Position numbers and translations under genes: made by a program
Source of the DNA: Candidatus Krumholzibacteriia bacterium
Lineage (GTDB): Bacteria > Krumholzibacteriota > Krumholzibacteriia > WVZY01
Direction of reading: 5' to 3'
Length of the DNA stretch: 41,495 bases
NCBI GenBank assembly: GCA_036478295.1
Contig: JAZGDW010000151.1
Span: forward strand, 1 to 41,495
Part shown: piece by piece, positions 3,664 to 11,989 of the stretch
Layout: every line of letters begins with the position of its first letter
Position numbering within the stretch: the first letter of the stretch is position 1
The notes under the pieces: model-generated
Told to the model about the DNA's origin: nothing
Seen by the model: only the letters and a program-made list of their open reading frames with translations
Database searches by the model: none

Positions 3664-4899
3664 TCAGACCTCTTCGTCGACAACCTGGATTTCGAGGTTG
3701 ATTTTGAGCGGGATGCTCTTCTTCATCTGTGATCGGGTAATGACCACAGGAACGGACACGCAGACCTCGTCACCGTCCCCTGACGGTGGCGGCGGAGCTG
3801 CCCGTGGTGGGGGCGGAGCCGCCCGTGGTGGGGGCGGAGCCGCCCGTGGTGGGAGCGGAGCTGCCCGCGGTGCCGGCGGCGGTTTGGGCCGGGCGGCCTT
3901 CGCTGACTCGGCCTCCTTGCGCTCGCTCGATTGAAAAGGATCCAGCACGAATTCGCCGTCGACAGCCTTTTCGGTCGGGCTGGACTCCGTGTCGTCGAGG
4001 TCAATGACCCGTCCTACCGTTTCATCGATTTCGTCCATTTTTCCCTCCTGGGCCGGCGCTTTTGCTTTTGTACGGCGCGCGGACGATCGTTTTTCGGATG
4101 CGGCCTTGCGCTTGGGCGGCGGCGGTGGGGCCGGTCGTGCAGTCTCGGCGTCATCGATCTCGCGCAGCGCGACGTCGACCACGTCGGTCACGGAGCGTTC
4201 TTCTTCGTCTGACGGGGGTGCGGCGGCTTTTCGGGCCGCATTCGTCCCCGCCCGCGTCGCGCGGGTCGGCGCCTTGCTTTCCCTGGATTTTTTCCGCGGC
4301 TGCTGGGTTTCGGACAAGCGATCTATCAGCTGGTTGTAGAGCATGCCGGCGATCGCCTCGAACGTTTCGTAAATCCCGGTCCCGACCGTGGCCACCGCCT
4401 CGAAGACCGGGACGTTGAGCAGGTTCAATTTTTCCGACAACGCCTTCACGGGGAGGGCTCCGTCGACGTCACGCTTGTTGTATTGGATCACCCACGGAAT
4501 GGTATCCAAAGTGAGGTCGTGCTCGTTGAGGTTCTCTTCCAGATTGCGGAGGCTCTCGAGGTTCTCCTCCATTTTCTCTGGGGTCGAGTCCGCCACGAAT
4601 ACGACGGCGTCGGCGCCTTTGAGAACCAGCTTACGGGTGGCATTGTAGTAGACCTGGCCGGGAACCGTATACAACAGCATTCGGGTGCGGTACCCGCTGA
4701 TTTCACCCAGTTCCAGAGGAAGGAAATCGAAGAAAAGGGTCCGGTCGGTCCGGGTTTTCATCGAGACCATCTTGCCCTTCGCGTCGGCGGGCATTTTTTC
4801 GTAGATGTACTCGAGATTGGTTGTTTTCCCGCTGAGCGCTGGTCCGTAATAGACCACTTTGGCGTTGATCTCAGCCCCCGAGTAATTGAAAACAACCAT
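3664..4899 (-). CDS. mglA: MglA-family small GTPase with long acidic/Pro-rich C-terminal extension (411 aa)
   Basis: From ATG 4899: EINAKVVYYGPALSGKTTNL, TDRTLFFDFLPL, LYTVPGQ, VFVADS, QYNKRD, closely matching Myxococcus MglA; about 215 extra C-terminal aa. Confidence 0.9.
   Translation of the reverse strand: MVVFNYSGAEINAKVVYYGPALSGKTTNLEYIYEKMPADAKGKMVSMKTRTDRTLFFDFLPLELGEISGYRTRMLLYTVPGQVYYNATRKLVLKGADAVVFVADSTPEKMEENLESLRNLEENLNEHDLTLDTIPWVIQYNKRDVDGALPVKALSEKLNLLNVPVFEAVATVGTGIYETFEAIAGMLYNQLIDRLSETQQPRKKSRESKAPTRATRAGTNAARKAAAPPSDEEERSVTDVVDVALREIDDAETARPAPPPPPKRKAASEKRSSARRTKAKAPAQEGKMDEIDETVGRVIDLDDTESSPTEKAVDGEFVLDPFQSSERKEAESAKAARPKPPPAPRAAPLPPRAAPPPPRAAPPPPRAAPPPPSGDGDEVCVSVPVVITRSQMKKSIPLKINLEIQVVDEEV
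3794..3877. repeat. 4 x 21-bp coding tandem repeat (RAAPPPP-like) in the mglA tail
   Basis: Units GGAGCYGCCCGTGGTGGGRGC at 3794, 3815, 3836 and a degenerate unit at 3857. Confidence 0.9.
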
Positions 4900-5043
4900 C
4901 TTTACCCTTTCGAATGTCCGTCGCCACCCCGTGTGGATGGCCGTAGGTCGGGCCGCCAGGAGCCCATTTGCCCCCTTTCGCCCACTGCACCTACCGGACA
5001 TGTCAGTGGTAGCTACCGTGTCCACCCCGACGTTGCGTGGTTG

Positions 5044-5060
5044 CGCAAAGAATGTGCCAA
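5044..5060 (-). promoter_or_regulatory. Sigma54 (-24/-12) promoter upstream of mglA
   Basis: Minus strand TTGGCACATTCTTTGCG = TGGCAC-N5-TTGC with exact GG-N10-GC spacing, about 145 bp before the mglA ATG. Confidence 0.7.
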
Positions 5061-5189
5061 AGAAAGCGGCGCCATCTGCGAAAAAACCGCTTAACTCCTT
5101 ATCTGAAAATCGTATACAATACTGCAATCGCCGGTACCGGGGATGCGGCCTTCGTGAACCATGCAATCCGCTCAAGTTCTTGTGATTTA

Positions 5190-6053
5190 ATGACGATAGC
5201 TCCGACGTTTTCCGCGGGATCCAACAACCGCCACCACCCGCCGCTGTCATTCGCCGTGGCTGCCGGCCTGGCGTCCGCCGTCCCCCACTGGCTGCTCTAC
5301 GCTGCCTCTCGTGTGGGAGGCGCAGTTCACTACTGCATGGCCGGGGACAAGCGGAGAAACTATCTCGCCAACACGCGATCACTCCCGAAACCGCGACGGC
5401 ACCGTCCGTGGCACGCATTTCAAAACCAGGCCCTCAACGTCCTCGAACTCCTGAAAGCGGCCAGCGAGGGGGAGGTGGCGTCGGACTTGTCCCTCCACGG
5501 CGAGCACACCATCCGCTCGGCGTTGGATCAGGGCCGCGGCCTGATCCTCACTACGTTCCATACGGGTAACTGGGAACTGGCGGGTCTCCAGCTGGCGCTC
5601 AGAGGGTATCCGGTAACCACCGTGGCCGGTGAGCAGTTACGAAAGGGTTGGTCCGATCAGGTGAAAGCGTTGAAGGAACGGTTCGGTCTGAGGATGGTCG
5701 GGCCCGGCGGCGGTGTGCGTGAACTGGTCCGCAACCTCCAAGCCAACCGGGTCGTCGCGCTGCATCTCGACGGCGACCTTTTCATCGGGGGACTCGAAGT
5801 GCTATTCTTCAACCGGCGCGTCCGGGTTCCGCGCGGCCCCGCACATCTCTCGCGGATTACCGGCGCACCGATCGCGTTTGCGTTCAGTCATCGCACCGGG
5901 AAAAGACAGCTCGAGCTTACCATCGAAAACAAAACCCCACCGCCGGCGTCGGCCGACGAAGAGCTGCGGTTGACACAGCGTCTCGTCACGCGCGTGGAGG
6001 AGCGCATCACCGAGGCGCCTGGGCAGTGGTGTATTTTTCGCCGGATCGAGTAA
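5190..6053 (+). CDS. Lysophospholipid/glycolipid acyltransferase (PatA/LpxL family)
   Basis: GRGLILTTFHTGNWELAG, V-x-FF...PRGPA-x-L, PGQW motifs; ATG 5190 chosen, start uncertain. Confidence 0.8.
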   Translation: MTIAPTFSAGSNNRHHPPLSFAVAAGLASAVPHWLLYAASRVGGAVHYCMAGDKRRNYLANTRSLPKPRRHRPWHAFQNQALNVLELLKAASEGEVASDLSLHGEHTIRSALDQGRGLILTTFHTGNWELAGLQLALRGYPVTTVAGEQLRKGWSDQVKALKERFGLRMVGPGGGVRELVRNLQANRVVALHLDGDLFIGGLEVLFFNRRVRVPRGPAHLSRITGAPIAFAFSHRTGKRQLELTIENKTPPPASADEELRLTQRLVTRVEERITEAPGQWCIFRRIE

Positions 6054-8524: not shown

Positions 8525-8965
8525 ATGCGCATCATCGAAAAGATGCTCACCGAGATGTTCGCCCGGCTGCTGAATGTGGAAATTGGCCCAAGGGTGTTGG
8601 AAAAACTCGTACCCGTAGTCGAGGGCGTTTCGGACAAAGTCCATGGAACGCTGGACCTCGAGACGGTGCAGGGTGAAAATACATTTCGCGCGCTGATCTG
8701 CAGCATGATCGTACATGGCTGGGGACTGGGAATGCACCCCGACAACAACGCCGATCACAACCTCGACGGCAAGCCGGTCGAAGTGAAGGTGTGCAAGGAC
8801 ATCCTCGTGCCGATCGACACGCTCAAGTCCATCCGCTACGTCAAGAAAGACGAGTACGGCCGCGTCAAGAAAGCACTTTTCGAACCGGATCAAAACGCCA
8901 GAATCTGGACCCAGATCGACGACATGCTGGTGCGGATCGCCAAAGAAAAATGGCAGGAAGAATAA
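8525..8965 (+). CDS. Hypothetical soluble protein (146 aa)
   Basis: ATG 8525 after GGAAGGG; C/G-ending codon use typical of real genes; no family recognised. Confidence 0.7.
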   Translation: MRIIEKMLTEMFARLLNVEIGPRVLEKLVPVVEGVSDKVHGTLDLETVQGENTFRALICSMIVHGWGLGMHPDNNADHNLDGKPVEVKVCKDILVPIDTLKSIRYVKKDEYGRVKKALFEPDQNARIWTQIDDMLVRIAKEKWQEE

Positions 8966-9041: not shown

Positions 9042-9064
9042 AGCCCGACTTGACTCGTCGGGCT
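9042..9064. terminator. Hairpin between convergent genes
   Basis: AGCCCGAC-ttgactc-GTCGGGCT 8-bp stem; no strong U-tract. Confidence 0.4.
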
Positions 9065-9678
9065 TAGAAGACCTTTTGCCCTTCGGCGAGGATCTCGTTC
9101 AGCGCTTCTTTGAAGTAATCCGTGGACTTGGCGACATCGGCCCCGACCTTTTCCTTATAGAGCTCCCAAGATTTCTTGATCTCGTCACCCAGGACCGTCA
9201 TCAGGTTGCCGTCGATCAGCGCCTGGTCACGTTTTTCCTGGTTGTAGCAGAGGATATCCGACACCAGAACACGGGCCAGGCGTCTGGCCCTGGCCTCCTT
9301 ACGGTTGTTCTTTCCGGGCGCTTGCGGCCGCGGCTGGCTTACCTCGCTCGGCCTTGGGGTGGTCGGAGCAGCTACGGGGGCTGCCGCGGCTACTGGAGCG
9401 GCTTGAGCGGGTTTAGGGGTGGTCCCGGCCACTGGAGCGGCTTGAGCGGGTTTGGGGGCGGTCCCGGCTACTGGAGCGGCTTGAGCGGGTTTGGGGGCGG
9501 TCCCGGCTACCGGAGCGGCCGGAGCGGCAGGTTTCTTGGCGGTAGCGGCCACCACCGTTGGCGGCACCAGGGTGAACACGGCCCGGCACTGCGGACATCT
9601 CACCTTGACCGGATTCTCGGGGATCTTTGACTCCGGTAGAAAGTACTTCGCCGCACAGCCTTCACATCGAACGATCAT
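9064..9678 (-). CDS. Zinc-ribbon (MJ0042-like) + Pro/Ala linker + RomX-like domain protein
   Basis: N-terminal CEGC...RCPQC; C-terminal RLARVLVSDILCYNQEK...NLMTVLGDEIKKSWELYKEKV...F..ALNEIL matches the RomX pattern as recalled. Confidence 0.8.
   Translation of the reverse strand: MIVRCEGCAAKYFLPESKIPENPVKVRCPQCRAVFTLVPPTVVAATAKKPAAPAAPVAGTAPKPAQAAPVAGTAPKPAQAAPVAGTTPKPAQAAPVAAAAPVAAPTTPRPSEVSQPRPQAPGKNNRKEARARRLARVLVSDILCYNQEKRDQALIDGNLMTVLGDEIKKSWELYKEKVGADVAKSTDYFKEALNEILAEGQKVF
9388..9519. repeat. About 3.4 x 39-bp coding tandem repeat (PKPAQAAPVAGTA)
   Basis: Units start at 9388, 9427, 9466, with a partial unit at 9505. Confidence 0.9.
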
Positions 9679-9796: not shown

Positions 9797-9813
9797 AGCA
9801 ACATTTGCGCCAA
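9797..9813 (-). promoter_or_regulatory. Sigma54 (-24/-12) promoter upstream of the zinc-ribbon/RomX-like gene
   Basis: Minus strand TTGGCGCAAATGTTGCT, exact GG-N10-GC, in the recG/ZnR intergenic gap. Confidence 0.6.
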
Positions 9814-9826
9814 ATGGCACGCTATT

Positions 9827-11926
9827 TCAGCCAACCGGCTGTGACAGGCCGCCCGTCTGTGTCTCCTGCAGGTATTCACGGCAAAGGCGCGCTTCGGGAC
9901 TATCGAGGCGAGGATCCGCGGCCATCAGCCTCTTGACGTGGCGCGCCGCGATCTCTACCAGGCGCTGGTCCACCGCCGGGTTTGCGACCTTGAGCCCCGG
10001 GACACCGTGCTGCCGTACGCCGAGGAATTCTCCCGGGCCCCGGATGCGAAGATCCTCCTCGGCGATGCGGAAACCATCATCGATCCGGTCGAGAATCCCC
10101 AGGCGCTCGCGCCCGATGCGTGAAGTACCCTCACCAAGCAGCAGAAAGCAGAACCCGCGCTCTCGTCCCCGTCCCACGCGGCCGCGTAGTTGGTGCAGCT
10201 GGGAGAGGCCATAACGTTCGGGATGATGAACCACCATGATGGTCGCCTCGGGGACGTGGACGCCGACCTCCACCACAGTCGTCGTCACTAGCAGTCGGAT
10301 GCGGCCGGCGGCGAAATCTGCCATGGCGGCTTCCTTCTCGGCGAAGACCATCCGCCCGTGGAGAAGGCCCACCGGCTGATCCCTGAAGGTGGTCCGTGAC
10401 AGCTCCTCGTAGGCAGAGACCGCCGCCTCGAGGTCCTGTTTCTCCGTCTCTTCGATCGCCGGATATAGAAAGTAGGCGCGGGCACCTCCCTCCAGCTTGT
10501 CGCGGACGAATTCGTACATTGCTTCCTTTTTTTCCGGTGCCACCAGCCTCGTCTTCACCCCGGAACGCCCCGGCGGCATCTCGTCGATAACGGACAAGTC
10601 CAGATCCGCGTACGCGGTCAAGGCCAGCGTGCGGGGGATCGGGGTTGCGGTCATTACCAGCAAGTGCGGGTTCCGATTCCGCGTGAGCAGGGCCGCGCGC
10701 TGGCGAACACCGAAACGGTGTTGCTCATCAACGACCACCACGCCGAGGCGGTCGAAAGTGACACCTTCCTGGATCAGGGCGTGGGTTCCGACCACCACCC
10801 GCGCAGTGCCGGCCGCTATATCAGCGTGAATGGCCCGCTTTTCGGCGGGCTTCAGCGAGCCGATCAACAACGACACGGGCACGTCGACCTCGTCAAAAAA
10901 TCCGGCGAGGGTCCGAGCGTGCTGCACCGCCAGGATTTCGGTCGGCACCATCAAGGCGCCTTGATGACCGGCTTCCACCGCCGCCAACATGGCCGCGCCA
11001 GCGACAATGGTCTTGCCCGAACCCACGTCCCCCTGAAGCAGGCGGTGCATGCCACGCTCGCTGGTCAGGTCGTTGTGGATCTCATCCAGCGTCCTGCGTT
11101 GCGCCGCGGTCAGTTCGAACGGCAGGGCGTCGATATAGCGTTTCTCCAGCTCGAACCCGCCATTCAGGCGCGGCCGATCACGCTGGTCCAGATGGCGCCG
11201 CCGCTGCAGCGACAGCACGAGTTGCAGATAAAACAGCTCTTCAATTTTGAGGCGTCTCAACGCCTCCTTGAAGTGCGTGCCGTCTTCAGGGAAATGGATT
11301 CCCTGCAGGGCCTGCCGCCGGCCGCATAGCTTCTCGGCCCGCATGAGACCGGCCGGCAGGTTTTCACGAATGAGATCTCCGAACTCGCGCAACCCTCTCG
11401 CGATGAGCTCCCTGAGAAACAGTTGCGAGACACCACGGGTGAGCGAATAGACGGGAACTACACGGCCCGTGTGAAGGAGTTCGGCGTCTAGCGCCTCCTC
11501 CAGCACTTCGAACTCCGGATTCACCACCTCCCTGGCCCCACGAAAGTAGGTCAGGGTGCCGGAGAAAATCGCTTCGTTCCCCGGTTTGAGGTGTCTGGCG
11601 AGGTAGGGCTGGTTGAACCACACAATCTGGACGATGCCGGTGTCGTCGCCCACCGCGGCTGCGATGCGCGACCGGCGGCCATGGCGGCCCCTCGGTTGGG
11701 CAACCGTCAGGATCTGGCCGAGGAAACACGTTTCTTCACCAATATTTAAGTCCTTGATTTTGGATAGGTTACGACGATCGTAGTACGTGCGCGGGAAATG
11801 CGTCAGCAACTCCTCGACAGTTTCGATCCCGAGCTTGCGCAGCCGCTGCGCGCGAACCGGTCCTACACCCTTGAGGAACTGGCACAGATCCGCCAGACCA
11901 CGCTGTCGCTTTTCAGGTCGCACCAC
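9827..11926 (-). CDS. recG: ATP-dependent DNA helicase RecG
   Basis: [53 protein letters not shown] start after AAGGAGG. Confidence 0.97.
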
Positions 11927-11936
11927 CTCGTCCTCC

Positions 11937-11989
11937 TTGCCAACGGCGTGCACATTTGCTATCTTAGGTGAAATTTACTGGGAGGTCTA
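11937..11989. promoter_or_regulatory. Bidirectional sigma70 promoter for rpmB/recG
   Basis: Plus strand: TTGCCA (11937-42), 17 bp, TGn-TATCTT (11960-65). Minus strand: TAGACC (11989-84), 17 bp, TAAGAT (11966-61). Confidence 0.6.

What the first reader, a model, noticed from the sequence alone, without database searches (positions are those of the whole stretch)
9064..9678. Zinc ribbon tethered to a RomX-like domain by a 13-aa repeat linker
The C-terminal ~75 aa (ARRLARVLVSDILCYNQEK..NL..VL..E.....ELYK..V.......F..A.N.I) follows my recollection of M. xanthus RomX (AMRLARAIASDISLYNEQK..NLFEVLKEELEEGRELYKSRV..FFERAINDI). RomX is normally a standalone ~90-aa protein. Here it is fused to an MJ0042-type CxxC...CxxC ribbon, a module found in myxobacterial polarity/motility proteins. 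Inference: the ribbon supplies localisation or partner binding in place of RomR.
Basis: partly seen in the sequence, partly recalled or inferred. Interest (0 to 1): 0.7.

Follow-up and report, generated by a model that had tools for sequence, protein, structure and literature searches.

The report
Zinc-ribbon-tethered RomX homologue
This gene encodes a true relative of the Myxococcus cell-polarity protein RomX joined by a floppy linker to a small zinc ribbon, which likely lets it hold an MglA-type GTPase switch without the usual RomR anchor; the family is common in several little-known phyla but has not been studied.

Summary
ORF 9064-9678 (-) encodes 204 aa in three parts. First, an MJ0042/GltJ/ZitP-type zinc ribbon (Pfam E 9e-14). 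Second, a disordered Pro/Ala-rich linker holding a 39-nt (13-aa) tandem repeat of 3.9 copies. Third, a C-terminal domain that is a true RomX homologue: PDB 8ZNA at E 5e-11, profile E 2e-15, and top Foldseek hit.

The three RomX helix-1 residues that contact MglA-GTP are kept. The basic residue that contacts RomR is acidic here, and the Trp-bearing tail is missing. No RomR-like protein was found in the genome.

The architecture is not a one-off. It was found as a single copy in 118 of 121 sampled genomes of the phylum, and also in a clade whose named members are Gemmatimonadota. In the window's clade the gene follows recG. It also precedes an unknown conserved gene and a long-tailed MglA paralogue. 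Conserved sigma-54-type motifs lie upstream of it and of the paralogue.

Binding to MglA, and any partner of the ribbon, are inferred and not shown. Four sampled genomes keep the protein without any detectable MglA-family GTPase.

This scan had already noted the same family in at least 24 other genomes. I found no paper describing the receiver-less form. I class it as a new variant of a known kind, of moderate interest.

The parts
9064..9678 (-). Whole gene, 204 codons plus stop at 9064-9066: zinc ribbon, linker and RomX-like domain
   Evidence: ORF list. 958 homologues at E<=1e-3 among near-length proteins; 119 of the 120 listed carry the N-terminal CxxC...CxxC.
9571..9678 (-). Residues 1-36: MJ0042 / GltJ / ZitP-type zinc ribbon with C5, C8, C28, C31
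   Evidence: PF13717 E 9e-14; TIGR02098 E 4.4e-9. PDB 7zok_A (AgmX = GltJ ribbon) E 8.3e-5 and 2nb9_A (ZitP) E 4.9e-4. Second Foldseek hit is the ZitP finger.
9313..9570 (-). Residues 37-122: disordered Pro/Ala-rich linker
   Evidence: AlphaFold2 pLDDT 42-53 in 10-residue blocks with no secondary structure. Linker length in homologues is 39-498 aa, median 78.
9376..9527 (-). 39-nt tandem repeat, 3.9 copies, encoding the 13-aa units inside the linker
   Evidence: TRF score 241, 89% matches. Same length in Logan contigs of X1 and X3. Absent from the closest homologue P0001.
9067..9312 (-). Residues 123-204: RomX-homologous helical bundle. R133, R136 and D141 align with RomX R11, R14 and D19. A198-E199 align with the RomX Leu-Arg pair of helix 3.
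   Evidence: Invariant columns in the 45-sequence alignment A2.
9797..9812 (-). Sigma-54-type -24/-12 motif TGGCGCAAATGTTGCT, 119-134 nt upstream of the start codon and just after the recG stop
   Evidence: A like motif lies within 220 nt upstream of the gene in 32 of 78 related loci, against 2.9% of background 220-nt windows. rpoN and nine receiver-type sigma-54 activators are in the genome.
3664..4899 (-). Context: long-tailed MglA paralogue, 411 aa from the Met at codon 174 of the long ORF. G domain is 52% identical to the genome's own MglA, followed by a ~220-aa Pro/Ala/Lys-rich tail with a conserved C-terminal beta-type motif.
   Evidence: Downstream on the same strand in 46 of 49 loci with enough flank.
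5044..5059 (-). Context: sigma-54-type motif TGGCACATTCTTTGCG upstream of the MglA paralogue
   Evidence: A like motif lies upstream of the paralogue in 28 of 40 loci.
8534..8965 (+). Context: conserved gene of no known family ('orfX', about 140 aa), convergent with the ZnR-RomX gene
   Evidence: No Pfam, PDB or Atlas hit. Present on the opposite strand in 58 of 80 loci. 70% mean column identity with invariant CSM..HGWG.GMHP and LFEPDQ motifs.
9827..11953 (-). Context: recG, immediately upstream on the same strand
   Evidence: Pfam RecG_wedge, DEAD, Helicase_C and RecG_dom3_C. Upstream on the same strand in 56 of 56 loci with at least 3.5 kb of upstream flank.

Best explanation
The gene encodes a zinc ribbon and a true RomX homologue joined by a disordered linker, and it likely works as a RomR-independent adaptor for MglA-type polarity GTPases. 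The RomX-like bundle would bind the GTP form of an MglA-family GTPase through helix 1 (R133, R136, D141). The GltJ/ZitP-type ribbon, on its flexible tether, would fix that complex to a second partner. I predict that partner to be the C-terminal helix of MglB or a polar landmark. One chain would thus do what the RomR/RomX pair does in Myxococcus.

Shown here: the domain identities, the fold, the conservation, the gene context and the promoter motifs. Inferred: both binding events, the localisation, and which of the two GTPases in this genome is the partner (canonical MglA with MglB on another contig, or the long-tailed paralogue 4 kb downstream).
For: **Homology to RomX.** Sequence E 5.4e-11, profile E 1.7e-15, and top Foldseek hit.

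**MglA-contact residues kept.** The preprint identifies RomX R11, R14 and D19 by mutation as the MglA-GTP face. They align with R133, R136 and D141, which are invariant in the 45-sequence alignment A2.

**RomR-contact residues missing.** The RomX helix-3 Leu-Arg pair aligns with A198-E199, and there is no Trp tail.

**No RomR found.** All 16 receiver proteins with tails carry known output domains.

**The ribbon resembles known partner-binding ribbons.** Its best solved relatives are the GltJ ribbon, which binds the MglB C-terminal helix and GltJ's own MglA-binding linker, and the ZitP ribbon, a polar PopZ binder according to that paper.

**Plausible clients in this genome.** mglB-mglA, a second intact MglA paralogue in the window, and type IV pilus genes.

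**Co-occurrence.** The RomX-domain gene is found once per genome in 118 of 121 sampled genomes of the phylum. An MglA-family gene is found in 115 of 121, and two of the three genomes without the RomX gene also lack MglA.

**Linkage.** An MglA-derived GTPase lies downstream on the same strand in 46 of 49 loci. It also does so in 5 of 5 genomes where only a profile search could detect it. Both genes carry conserved sigma-54-type motifs.
Against: No binding has been shown for either domain.

G001, G004, G005 (99-100% complete) and G015 keep a zinc ribbon-RomX-like gene but gave no MglA-family match. For the first three this held even with a profile at E<=1e-3; G015 was tested only with the single-protein query at E<=1e-15.

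In that family of genomes (f3) the Asp matching RomX D19 is lost in 3 of 5 genomes with a GTPase and in 2 of 4 without. The residue is therefore not universally constrained, and its loss does not track loss of the GTPase.

The recG/orfX/paralogue context is absent from the Gemmatimonadota-labelled clade (0 of 32 loci of at least 4 kb). There the gene follows a GGDEF protein and precedes prfB-lysS.

The most invariant part of the family is helix 3 and the C-terminus (F..ALNEILA.G...F). No function is known for it here.

Confidence: 0.55

Rival explanations
1. The protein belongs to a separate, sigma-54-controlled module with the neighbouring long-tailed MglA paralogue and orfX, and does not act on the canonical MglA/MglB pair. 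The RomX-like domain would serve the paralogue alone.
For: An MglA-derived GTPase follows on the same strand in 46 of 49 loci, and no MglB lies in any of the 80 loci. It is kept next to the gene even where it is very divergent (5 of 5 genomes). In 55 of 57 loci the neighbour scores higher against the paralogue than against the genome's own MglA. Sigma-54-type motifs lie before the ZnR-RomX gene (32 of 78), the paralogue (28 of 40) and, in another sub-clade, orfX (24 of 55).
Against: RomX-domain scores are strong (E<=1e-35) in sampled genomes that have the canonical MglA, including five whose neighbouring GTPase is very divergent. They are weak (1e-7 to 1e-28) in the 22 genomes without a canonical MglA. 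This pattern is confounded by relatedness. The synteny is missing in the Gemmatimonadota-labelled clade.
Confidence: 0.25
2. The RomX-like bundle here does not bind a GTPase. It binds another partner, such as a receiver domain or a sigma-54 activator, through its invariant helix 3. The protein would be a general signalling adaptor.
For: Four sampled genomes keep the protein with no detectable MglA-family gene. Helix 3 and the C-terminus are the most conserved part, even in those genomes. RomX-like domains occur in cis with receiver domains in other proteins.
Against: The RxxR of helix 1 is kept in all sequences seen, and the Asp is kept in all 45 of A2. There is near-universal co-occurrence and linkage with MglA-family genes. 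The RomX residue that pairs with the RomR receiver is charge-reversed.
Confidence: 0.12
3. The protein works with RecG in DNA repair or replication restart, and the ribbon binds DNA.
For: recG lies immediately upstream on the same strand in 56 of 56 loci with enough flank. The canonical mglBA pair also sits beside ybaB-recR.
Against: The gene has its own conserved sigma-54-type motif between the recG stop and its start. The recG linkage is absent in the Gemmatimonadota-labelled clade. Both domains have their closest solved relatives in polarity and motility proteins, not nucleic-acid binders.
Confidence: 0.04

Closest known systems
RomX of Myxococcus xanthus (PDB 8ZNA), partner of RomR and MglA-GTP
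   Same: Homologous helical bundle: 33% identity over 75 columns, E 5.4e-11. The helix-1 Arg-x-x-Arg and Asp are kept, and the helix-3 motif A-(I/L)-N-(D/E)-I-(V/L) is shared.
   Different: Here the domain is fused behind a zinc ribbon and an 86-residue disordered linker. The helix-3 Arg/Lys that pairs with RomR Glu-108 is Glu/Asp/Gly/Asn. There is no Trp-bearing C-terminal tail, and no RomR was found in the genome.
N-terminal region of GltJ (AgmX) of M. xanthus: zinc ribbon - MglA-binding linker - GYF domain
   Same: Best solved sequence relative of the ribbon (7zok_A, E 8.3e-5), with cysteines at the same positions 5, 8, 28 and 31. The logic is the same: a ribbon tethered to a module that binds MglA-GTP.
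   Different: In GltJ the MglA-binding element is the linker itself, followed by a GYF domain and a membrane part. Here the linker is low-complexity and the likely binder is a folded RomX-like domain. MglB binding by this ribbon is untested.
Response regulators with receiver + 'zinc finger/thioredoxin putative' + RomX-like fold, noted by Chakraborty and Gayathri (A0A2N6E6P0)
   Same: The same two domain families occur together. I found relatives with ribbon + receiver + 3-5 RomX-like repeats, such as P0278, P0279 and P0329.
   Different: The window's family has no receiver domain and a single RomX-like domain that ends the protein, 73 residues after the motif start in 146 of 150.
ZitP of Caulobacter crescentus (zinc-finger pilus regulator, PDB 2NB9)
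   Same: Same ribbon type (E 4.9e-4; second Foldseek hit). That ribbon is a protein-binding, pole-targeting module.
   Different: ZitP binds PopZ and has a different C-terminal part. No PopZ link was examined here.

Membership tests
RomX domain family | Significant sequence similarity to M. xanthus RomX | tested here: met
   phmmer E 5.4e-11; family profile E 1.7e-15 against 8zna_A; next best hits are eIF3b fragments, at E 0.43 or worse (phmmer) and E 0.011 or worse (profile).
RomX domain family | Short all-helical bundle (three-helix bundle in 8ZNA) | tested here: met
   AlphaFold2 helices span 123-199 at pLDDT 82-94. The middle helix is kinked into 147-156/159-162 plus 164-178 in DSSP. Foldseek top hit is 8zna, TM 0.68, rmsd 2.2.
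RomX domain family | Helix-1 residues R11, R14, D19 (MglA-GTP face, from mutagenesis in the preprint) | tested here: met
   They align with R133, R136 and D141, all invariant in the 45 sequences of A2. In family f3 of the phylum the Asp is lost in 5 of 9 sequences.
RomX domain family | Helix-3 Leu/Arg(Lys) and C-terminal Trp that contact the RomR receiver | tested here: not met
   The Leu-Arg pair of RomX (chain positions 76-77 in the HMMER alignment; L75/R76 in the preprint's numbering) aligns with A198-E199. Position 199 is E, D, G or N in all 28 sequences of A1. The protein ends 5 residues later, before the Trp position. A conserved terminal aromatic (F204) exists, but at a different distance.
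RomX domain family | Standalone protein of about 90 aa working with a RomR encoded in the same genome | tested here: not met
   The protein is a fusion. tblastn found no second RomX-like gene in the genome. None of the 22 receiver ORFs is RomR-like; one is cut by a contig end, and the genome is 91% complete.
RomX domain family | GTP-dependent binding to MglA | not testable with these tools
   Needs ITC or pull-down with purified proteins.
MJ0042 / Zn_ribbon_4 (GltJ, ZitP type) | N-terminal CxxC-(about 19)-CxxC ribbon scoring above the curated cut-offs | tested here: met
   PF13717 51.6 bits (cut-off 30.3); PF13719 39.4 (29.3); TIGR02098 35.9 (20.9); C5, C8, C28, C31.
MJ0042 / Zn_ribbon_4 (GltJ, ZitP type) | Binds a protein partner (MglB C-terminal helix for GltJ; PopZ for ZitP) | not tested
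   The genome's MglB (165 aa) has a C-terminal extension beyond the Roadblock domain. No binding test was run.
RomR | Receiver domain + variable linker + conserved helical RomR-C (Keilberg 2012, passages) | tested here: not met
   This protein has no receiver domain. RomR-C could not be searched because I held no RomR sequence.

The most novel reading that the evidence does not exclude
The zinc ribbon-linker-RomX protein is a single-chain equivalent of the RomR/RomX pair and works as a GltJ-like conformational switch. Binding of a GTP-loaded MglA-family GTPase to the RomX bundle would free the ribbon to recruit MglB or another partner. Together with orfX and the long-tailed MglA paralogue it would form a second, sigma-54-controlled polarity switch. 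That switch would be ancestral to Krumholzibacteriota, Latescibacterota, Eisenbacteria and Fibrobacterota-type lineages, and would be wired without RomR.
Probability: 0.2. Interest if true: 0.75.

Novelty: new variant of a known kind. Interest (0 to 1): 0.5.

Why it matters
What RomX does is currently disputed. It was first described as a nucleotide exchange factor acting with RomR. A 2024 preprint (abstract seen) argues that it is a strict effector of MglA-GTP.

A natural RomX domain that lacks the RomR contact residues offers a simpler system for asking what the RomX fold does by itself and how it is localised. It is tethered to a ribbon of the GltJ/ZitP type, and it is near-universal and single-copy in a whole candidate phylum.

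It also extends a Myxococcus-type polarity toolkit to uncultured sediment and soil phyla that carry type IV pilus genes. And it ties that toolkit to an undescribed long-tailed MglA paralogue and a conserved protein of no known family.

Tried and rejected
**Complex prediction.** I submitted the paralogue G domain with GTP and Mg against the RomX-like domain. The verdict was 'no answer' (score 0.04, mark 0.32). I do not count it either way.

**RNA evidence.** No RNA holder was listed, so nothing can be said about expression.

**orfX.** There was no Pfam, PDB-sequence or Atlas hit. The AlphaFold2 model had mean pLDDT 56.6, too poor to search with.

**First sigma-54 conservation test.** It used a wrongly spaced pattern (8 instead of 7 bases between TGGC and TTGC) and gave 1 of 78. 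That result is void and is replaced (32 of 78). Across the whole window the loose consensus is not enriched: 8 matches against 7.0 expected. What counts is position and conservation.

**Using the MglA glutamates to choose between the two GTPases.** The preprint places Glu-108, Glu-111 and Glu-115 of MglA at the RomX interface. The window's paralogue has all three and the canonical MglA has one plus an Asp. Across paralogues, however, positions 108 and 111 vary, so I dropped this test.

**A natural experiment.** I asked whether loss of the Asp matching RomX D19 tracks loss of MglA in family f3. It does not: 3 of 5 with a GTPase have lost it, against 2 of 4 without.

**A 'canonical-MglA-only' class of genomes.** I inferred it. 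It was wrong: 5 of 5 re-searched with a profile have a divergent GTPase next to the gene.

**Short 'standalone' hits.** Most are fragments or internal starts. In the Gemmatimonadota-labelled clade 60 of 80 loci show the ribbon upstream in frame, 17 run off the contig, and 3 lack it.

**Spurious ORF.** I rejected this on the conservation evidence.

**Szadkowski 2019.** The paper is not held.
Full report
**1. What is there**

The ORF at 9064..9678 on the minus strand starts with ATG and encodes 204 residues. Residues 1-36 score above the curated cut-offs of Pfam Zn_ribbon_4 (E 9e-14), Zn_ribbon_5 and NCBIfam MJ0042_CXXC. The cysteines are at 5, 8, 28 and 31.

A 39-nt unit is repeated 3.9 times at 9376-9527 with 89% matches. 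It encodes three 13-residue units and a partial one inside a Pro/Ala-rich stretch.

The last 78 residues hit exactly one meaningful entry in the PDB, chain 8zna_A named RomX. The match is E 5.4e-11 over 71 ungapped positions. No Pfam or NCBIfam model covers this part.

An AlphaFold2 model built on 45 homologues gives three regions:
- a ribbon at pLDDT about 75;
- no structure for residues 42-120;
- a helical C-terminal domain at pLDDT 82-94.

The best Foldseek match in the PDB is 8zna (probability 1.00, target-normalised TM 0.68, rmsd 2.2, 33% identity). The second is the ZitP zinc finger. By sequence, the ribbon's best solved relatives are 7zok_A, 'Adventurous gliding motility protein X' (the GltJ ribbon), at E 8.3e-5, and ZitP 2nb9_A at E 4.9e-4.

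The repeat array has the same length in Logan contigs of two runs of one study. It is absent from the closest homologue, P0001, which has the same flanking residues. The repeat is a recent local expansion of a linker that varies freely in the family.

**2. The family**

A near-length search gave 958 proteins at E<=1e-3. Of the 120 listed, 119 have the N-terminal CxxC...CxxC.

Among 153 ribbon-bearing proteins from the three searches, 150 matched my helix-1 motif. Their linkers run from 39 to 498 residues (median 78). In 146 of the 150 the protein ends exactly 73 residues after the motif start. The RomX-like domain is therefore always the C-terminus.

A profile of 28 domain sequences (A1) hits RomX at E 1.7e-15. 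Against 1.84 billion representatives it finds 3,364 clusters at E<=1e-3 and 1,139 at E<=1e-10. The 150 listed break down as follows:
- 87 are ribbon-linker-RomX;
- 41 lack a ribbon but start with Met;
- 13 are fragments;
- 9 are long.

Several of the long ones carry a ribbon, a receiver domain and three to five RomX-like repeats.

In species-representative genomes, 486 of 533 pattern matches were confirmed. The best 80 are labelled Krumholzibacteriota, Latescibacterota, Eisenbacteria, Fibrobacteraceae and Chitinivibrionia, with a few other labels. The closest is a Krumholzibacteriia MAG, so the window's organism probably belongs there.

In a sample of 121 genomes of the window's GTDB phylum, 118 have the domain, each exactly once.

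A second clade has named members that are Gemmatimonadota (names). I sampled it from metagenome contigs: 508 of 600 stretches were confirmed. Of the best 80, 60 have the ribbon in frame upstream, 17 run off the contig and 3 lack it. Most short 'standalone' hits are therefore truncated calls.

**3. Comparison with RomX, residue by residue**

I read the preprint of Chakraborty and Gayathri as outline and abstract, passages, and sections 5 and 6. It reports four things:
- RomX is a monomeric three-helix bundle.
- Helix-3 residues Leu-75 and Arg-76 (often Lys) and Trp-87 contact the RomR receiver.
- Foldseek finds RomX-like folds in response regulators that also carry a 'zinc finger/thioredoxin putative' domain.

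In the ungapped HMMER alignment, R11, R14 and D19 fall on R133, R136 and D141. All three are invariant in the 45-sequence alignment A2.

RomX has only one Leu-Arg pair at the end of helix 3. It sits at chain positions 76-77 by my count, one off the preprint's numbering. It falls on A198-E199. Position 199 is E, D, G or N in all 28 sequences of A1. The protein ends five residues later, so there is no counterpart of the Trp tail.

The MglA face is thus kept, and the specific RomR contacts are not.

**4. The rest of the genome**

The assembly is 3.52 Mb in 316 contigs and 91% complete.

*MglA and MglB.* An mglB-mglA pair lies on another contig, downstream of ybaB-recR. tblastn found no second RomX-like gene.

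*Receiver proteins.* Of 22 receiver-domain ORFs, none has a Pro-rich tail. All 16 with tails of 90 residues or more have ordinary output domains. Nine of those are sigma-54 activators. Two more are bare receivers, one of them cut by a contig end. The remaining four of the 22 ORFs were not sent to Pfam; three have no tail beyond the receiver and one carries its receiver at the C-terminus. RomR is defined as receiver + linker + RomR-C (Keilberg 2012, passages). It was not found by architecture. I held no RomR sequence to search with.

*Possible outputs.* Type IV pilus genes (a PilB/PilT pair, two more PilT-like ATPases, PilM) and rpoN are present.

**5. Gene context**

*recG.* In loci with enough flank, recG lies upstream on the same strand in 56 of 56.

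*The neighbouring GTPase.* An MglA-family GTPase lies downstream on the same strand in 46 of 49. In the window it is at 3664-4899. It has an intact P-loop, switch I Arg and TVPGQ, is 52% identical to the genome's own MglA, and matches M. xanthus MglA at E 2.4e-70. It carries a tail of about 220 residues with its own Pro-rich repeat and a conserved C-terminal motif.

In 55 of 57 loci the neighbour resembles this paralogue more than the canonical MglA. No MglB lies in any of the 80 loci.

*orfX.* Between the two genes, on the other strand, lies a conserved gene of no known family, found in 58 of 80 loci. In Fibrobacteraceae-labelled loci it is the only gene in between.

*Divergent neighbours.* Five genomes that looked as if they had only the canonical MglA turned out, under a profile search, to have a very divergent GTPase 1-2 kb downstream of the gene.

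*Promoter motifs.* A sigma-54-type -24/-12 motif lies 119-134 nt upstream of the start codon, just past the recG stop. A very similar motif lies within 220 nt upstream in 32 of 78 loci, against 2.9% of background windows. A canonical TGGCA(C/T)-N5-TTGC lies upstream of the paralogue in 28 of 40 loci and in the window at 5044-5059. In another sub-clade orfX has one too, in 24 of 55 loci. My first test of this used a wrong spacing and is void.

*The other clade.* In the Gemmatimonadota-labelled clade none of this context is seen (0 of 32 loci of at least 4 kb). There the gene follows a GGDEF protein by 12-15 bp and precedes prfB-lysS.

**6. How it most likely works**

The ribbon of GltJ binds GltJ's own linker. 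When MglA-GTP takes the linker, the ribbon is freed to bind the C-terminal helix of MglB, which speeds GTP hydrolysis (Attia 2024; abstract, passages and section 15).

The protein here has the same logic in a different build: the same kind of ribbon, tethered to a folded module whose homologue binds MglA-GTP.

I therefore commit to an adaptor model. The RomX-like domain would hold a GTP-bound MglA-family GTPase. The ribbon would tie it to a second partner, possibly MglB or a polar landmark, replacing RomR. Both contacts are inferred.

Which GTPase is served is open:
- Synteny and shared promoter type point to the paralogue.
- RomX-domain scores point the other way. They stay high where the canonical MglA exists and drop in the 22 sampled genomes without it. 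That pattern is confounded by relatedness.

**7. What speaks against**

G001, G004, G005 and G015 keep a ribbon-RomX-like gene but gave no MglA-family match. For the first three this held even with a profile at E<=1e-3.

In their family of genomes the Asp matching D19 is often lost, whether or not a GTPase is present. What stays invariant everywhere is RxxR in helix 1 and F..ALNEILA.G...F at the end. The latter has no known role.

The protein may thus have an MglA-independent partner as well.

**8. Known or new**

Full-text searches for RomX alone, for RomX with zinc, for GltJ/ZnR/MglA, and for MglA with these phyla found only the preprint's remark on receiver-containing proteins. I could not see its supplementary table of hits. 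I found no description of the receiver-less ribbon-linker-RomX family, of the long-tailed paralogue, or of orfX.

Wuichet and Sogaard-Andersen 2014 (passages) list Group 1 MglA in Fibrobacteres, Gemmatimonadetes and Acidobacteria, which fits the distribution seen here.

Within this scan the same family has been reported before in at least 24 other genomes, with the same reading. My calls reproduce those points independently. They add the genomes without MglA, the different context in the second clade, and the always-present divergent neighbour.

**Verdict:** a real, ordinary-looking gene of an undescribed but widespread variant of a known polarity protein. Moderate interest.

Noticed in passing
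window 3664-5418 (-): The long ORF (584 codons) probably starts at its Met 174 (window 4899), giving a 411-aa MglA paralogue. It has an intact G domain plus a ~220-aa Pro/Ala/Lys-rich tail with a PPRAAPPP-type tandem repeat and a conserved C-terminal motif (VPVVITRSQ...IPLK..LEIQVVD). The tail motif recurs in relatives, including short and very divergent ones.
   Followed up: partly
window 8534-8965 (+): Conserved ~140-aa protein of no known family (orfX), with invariant CSM..HGWG.GMHP and LFEPDQ motifs. It always lies between the ZnR-RomX gene and the GTPase, on the other strand. In the window it ends a GT4-MFS-orfX run; in another sub-clade it has its own sigma-54-type motif. The AlphaFold2 model was too poor to use.
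   Followed up: partly
L067 6929-7810 (+); also L059, L065, L075, L079: In Fibrobacteraceae-labelled loci the neighbouring GTPase is short (261-293 aa) and only 27-34% identical. The L067 copy has a P-loop reading GCGKR instead of GKT, so it may be a pseudo-GTPase. It keeps the C-terminal tail motif.
   Followed up: no
P0278, P0279, P0280, P0281, P0285, P0288, P0329: Proteins of 600-990 aa carry an N-terminal zinc ribbon, a receiver domain and three to five tandem RomX-like domains. P0382 (754 aa) has four RomX-like stretches but showed no receiver or ribbon hit in Pfam.
   Followed up: partly
L001 (G000 contig C249): The canonical mglB-mglA pair lies directly downstream of ybaB and recR, while the ZnR-RomX gene lies downstream of recG. 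The two polarity loci thus sit beside recombination genes, which may be coincidence.
   Followed up: no
L168 6442-8258; L169 5813-7803; L161 2777-4577: In the Gemmatimonadota-labelled clade the ZnR-RomX gene follows a ~325-aa protein by 12-15 bp. That protein has a C-terminal GGDEF domain and an unassigned N-terminal half. The ZnR-RomX gene is followed by prfB and lysS.
   Followed up: partly
window 9042-9064: An 8-bp GC-rich inverted repeat (7-nt loop) abuts the stop codon of the ZnR-RomX gene, between the two convergent genes. No T-run follows, so the terminator scan did not list it.
   Followed up: no
G001, G004, G005, G015 (loci L180-L182, L188): Four genomes of one family of the phylum keep a zinc ribbon-RomX-like gene but gave no MglA-family GTPase match. 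G059 and G083 lack both.
   Followed up: partly
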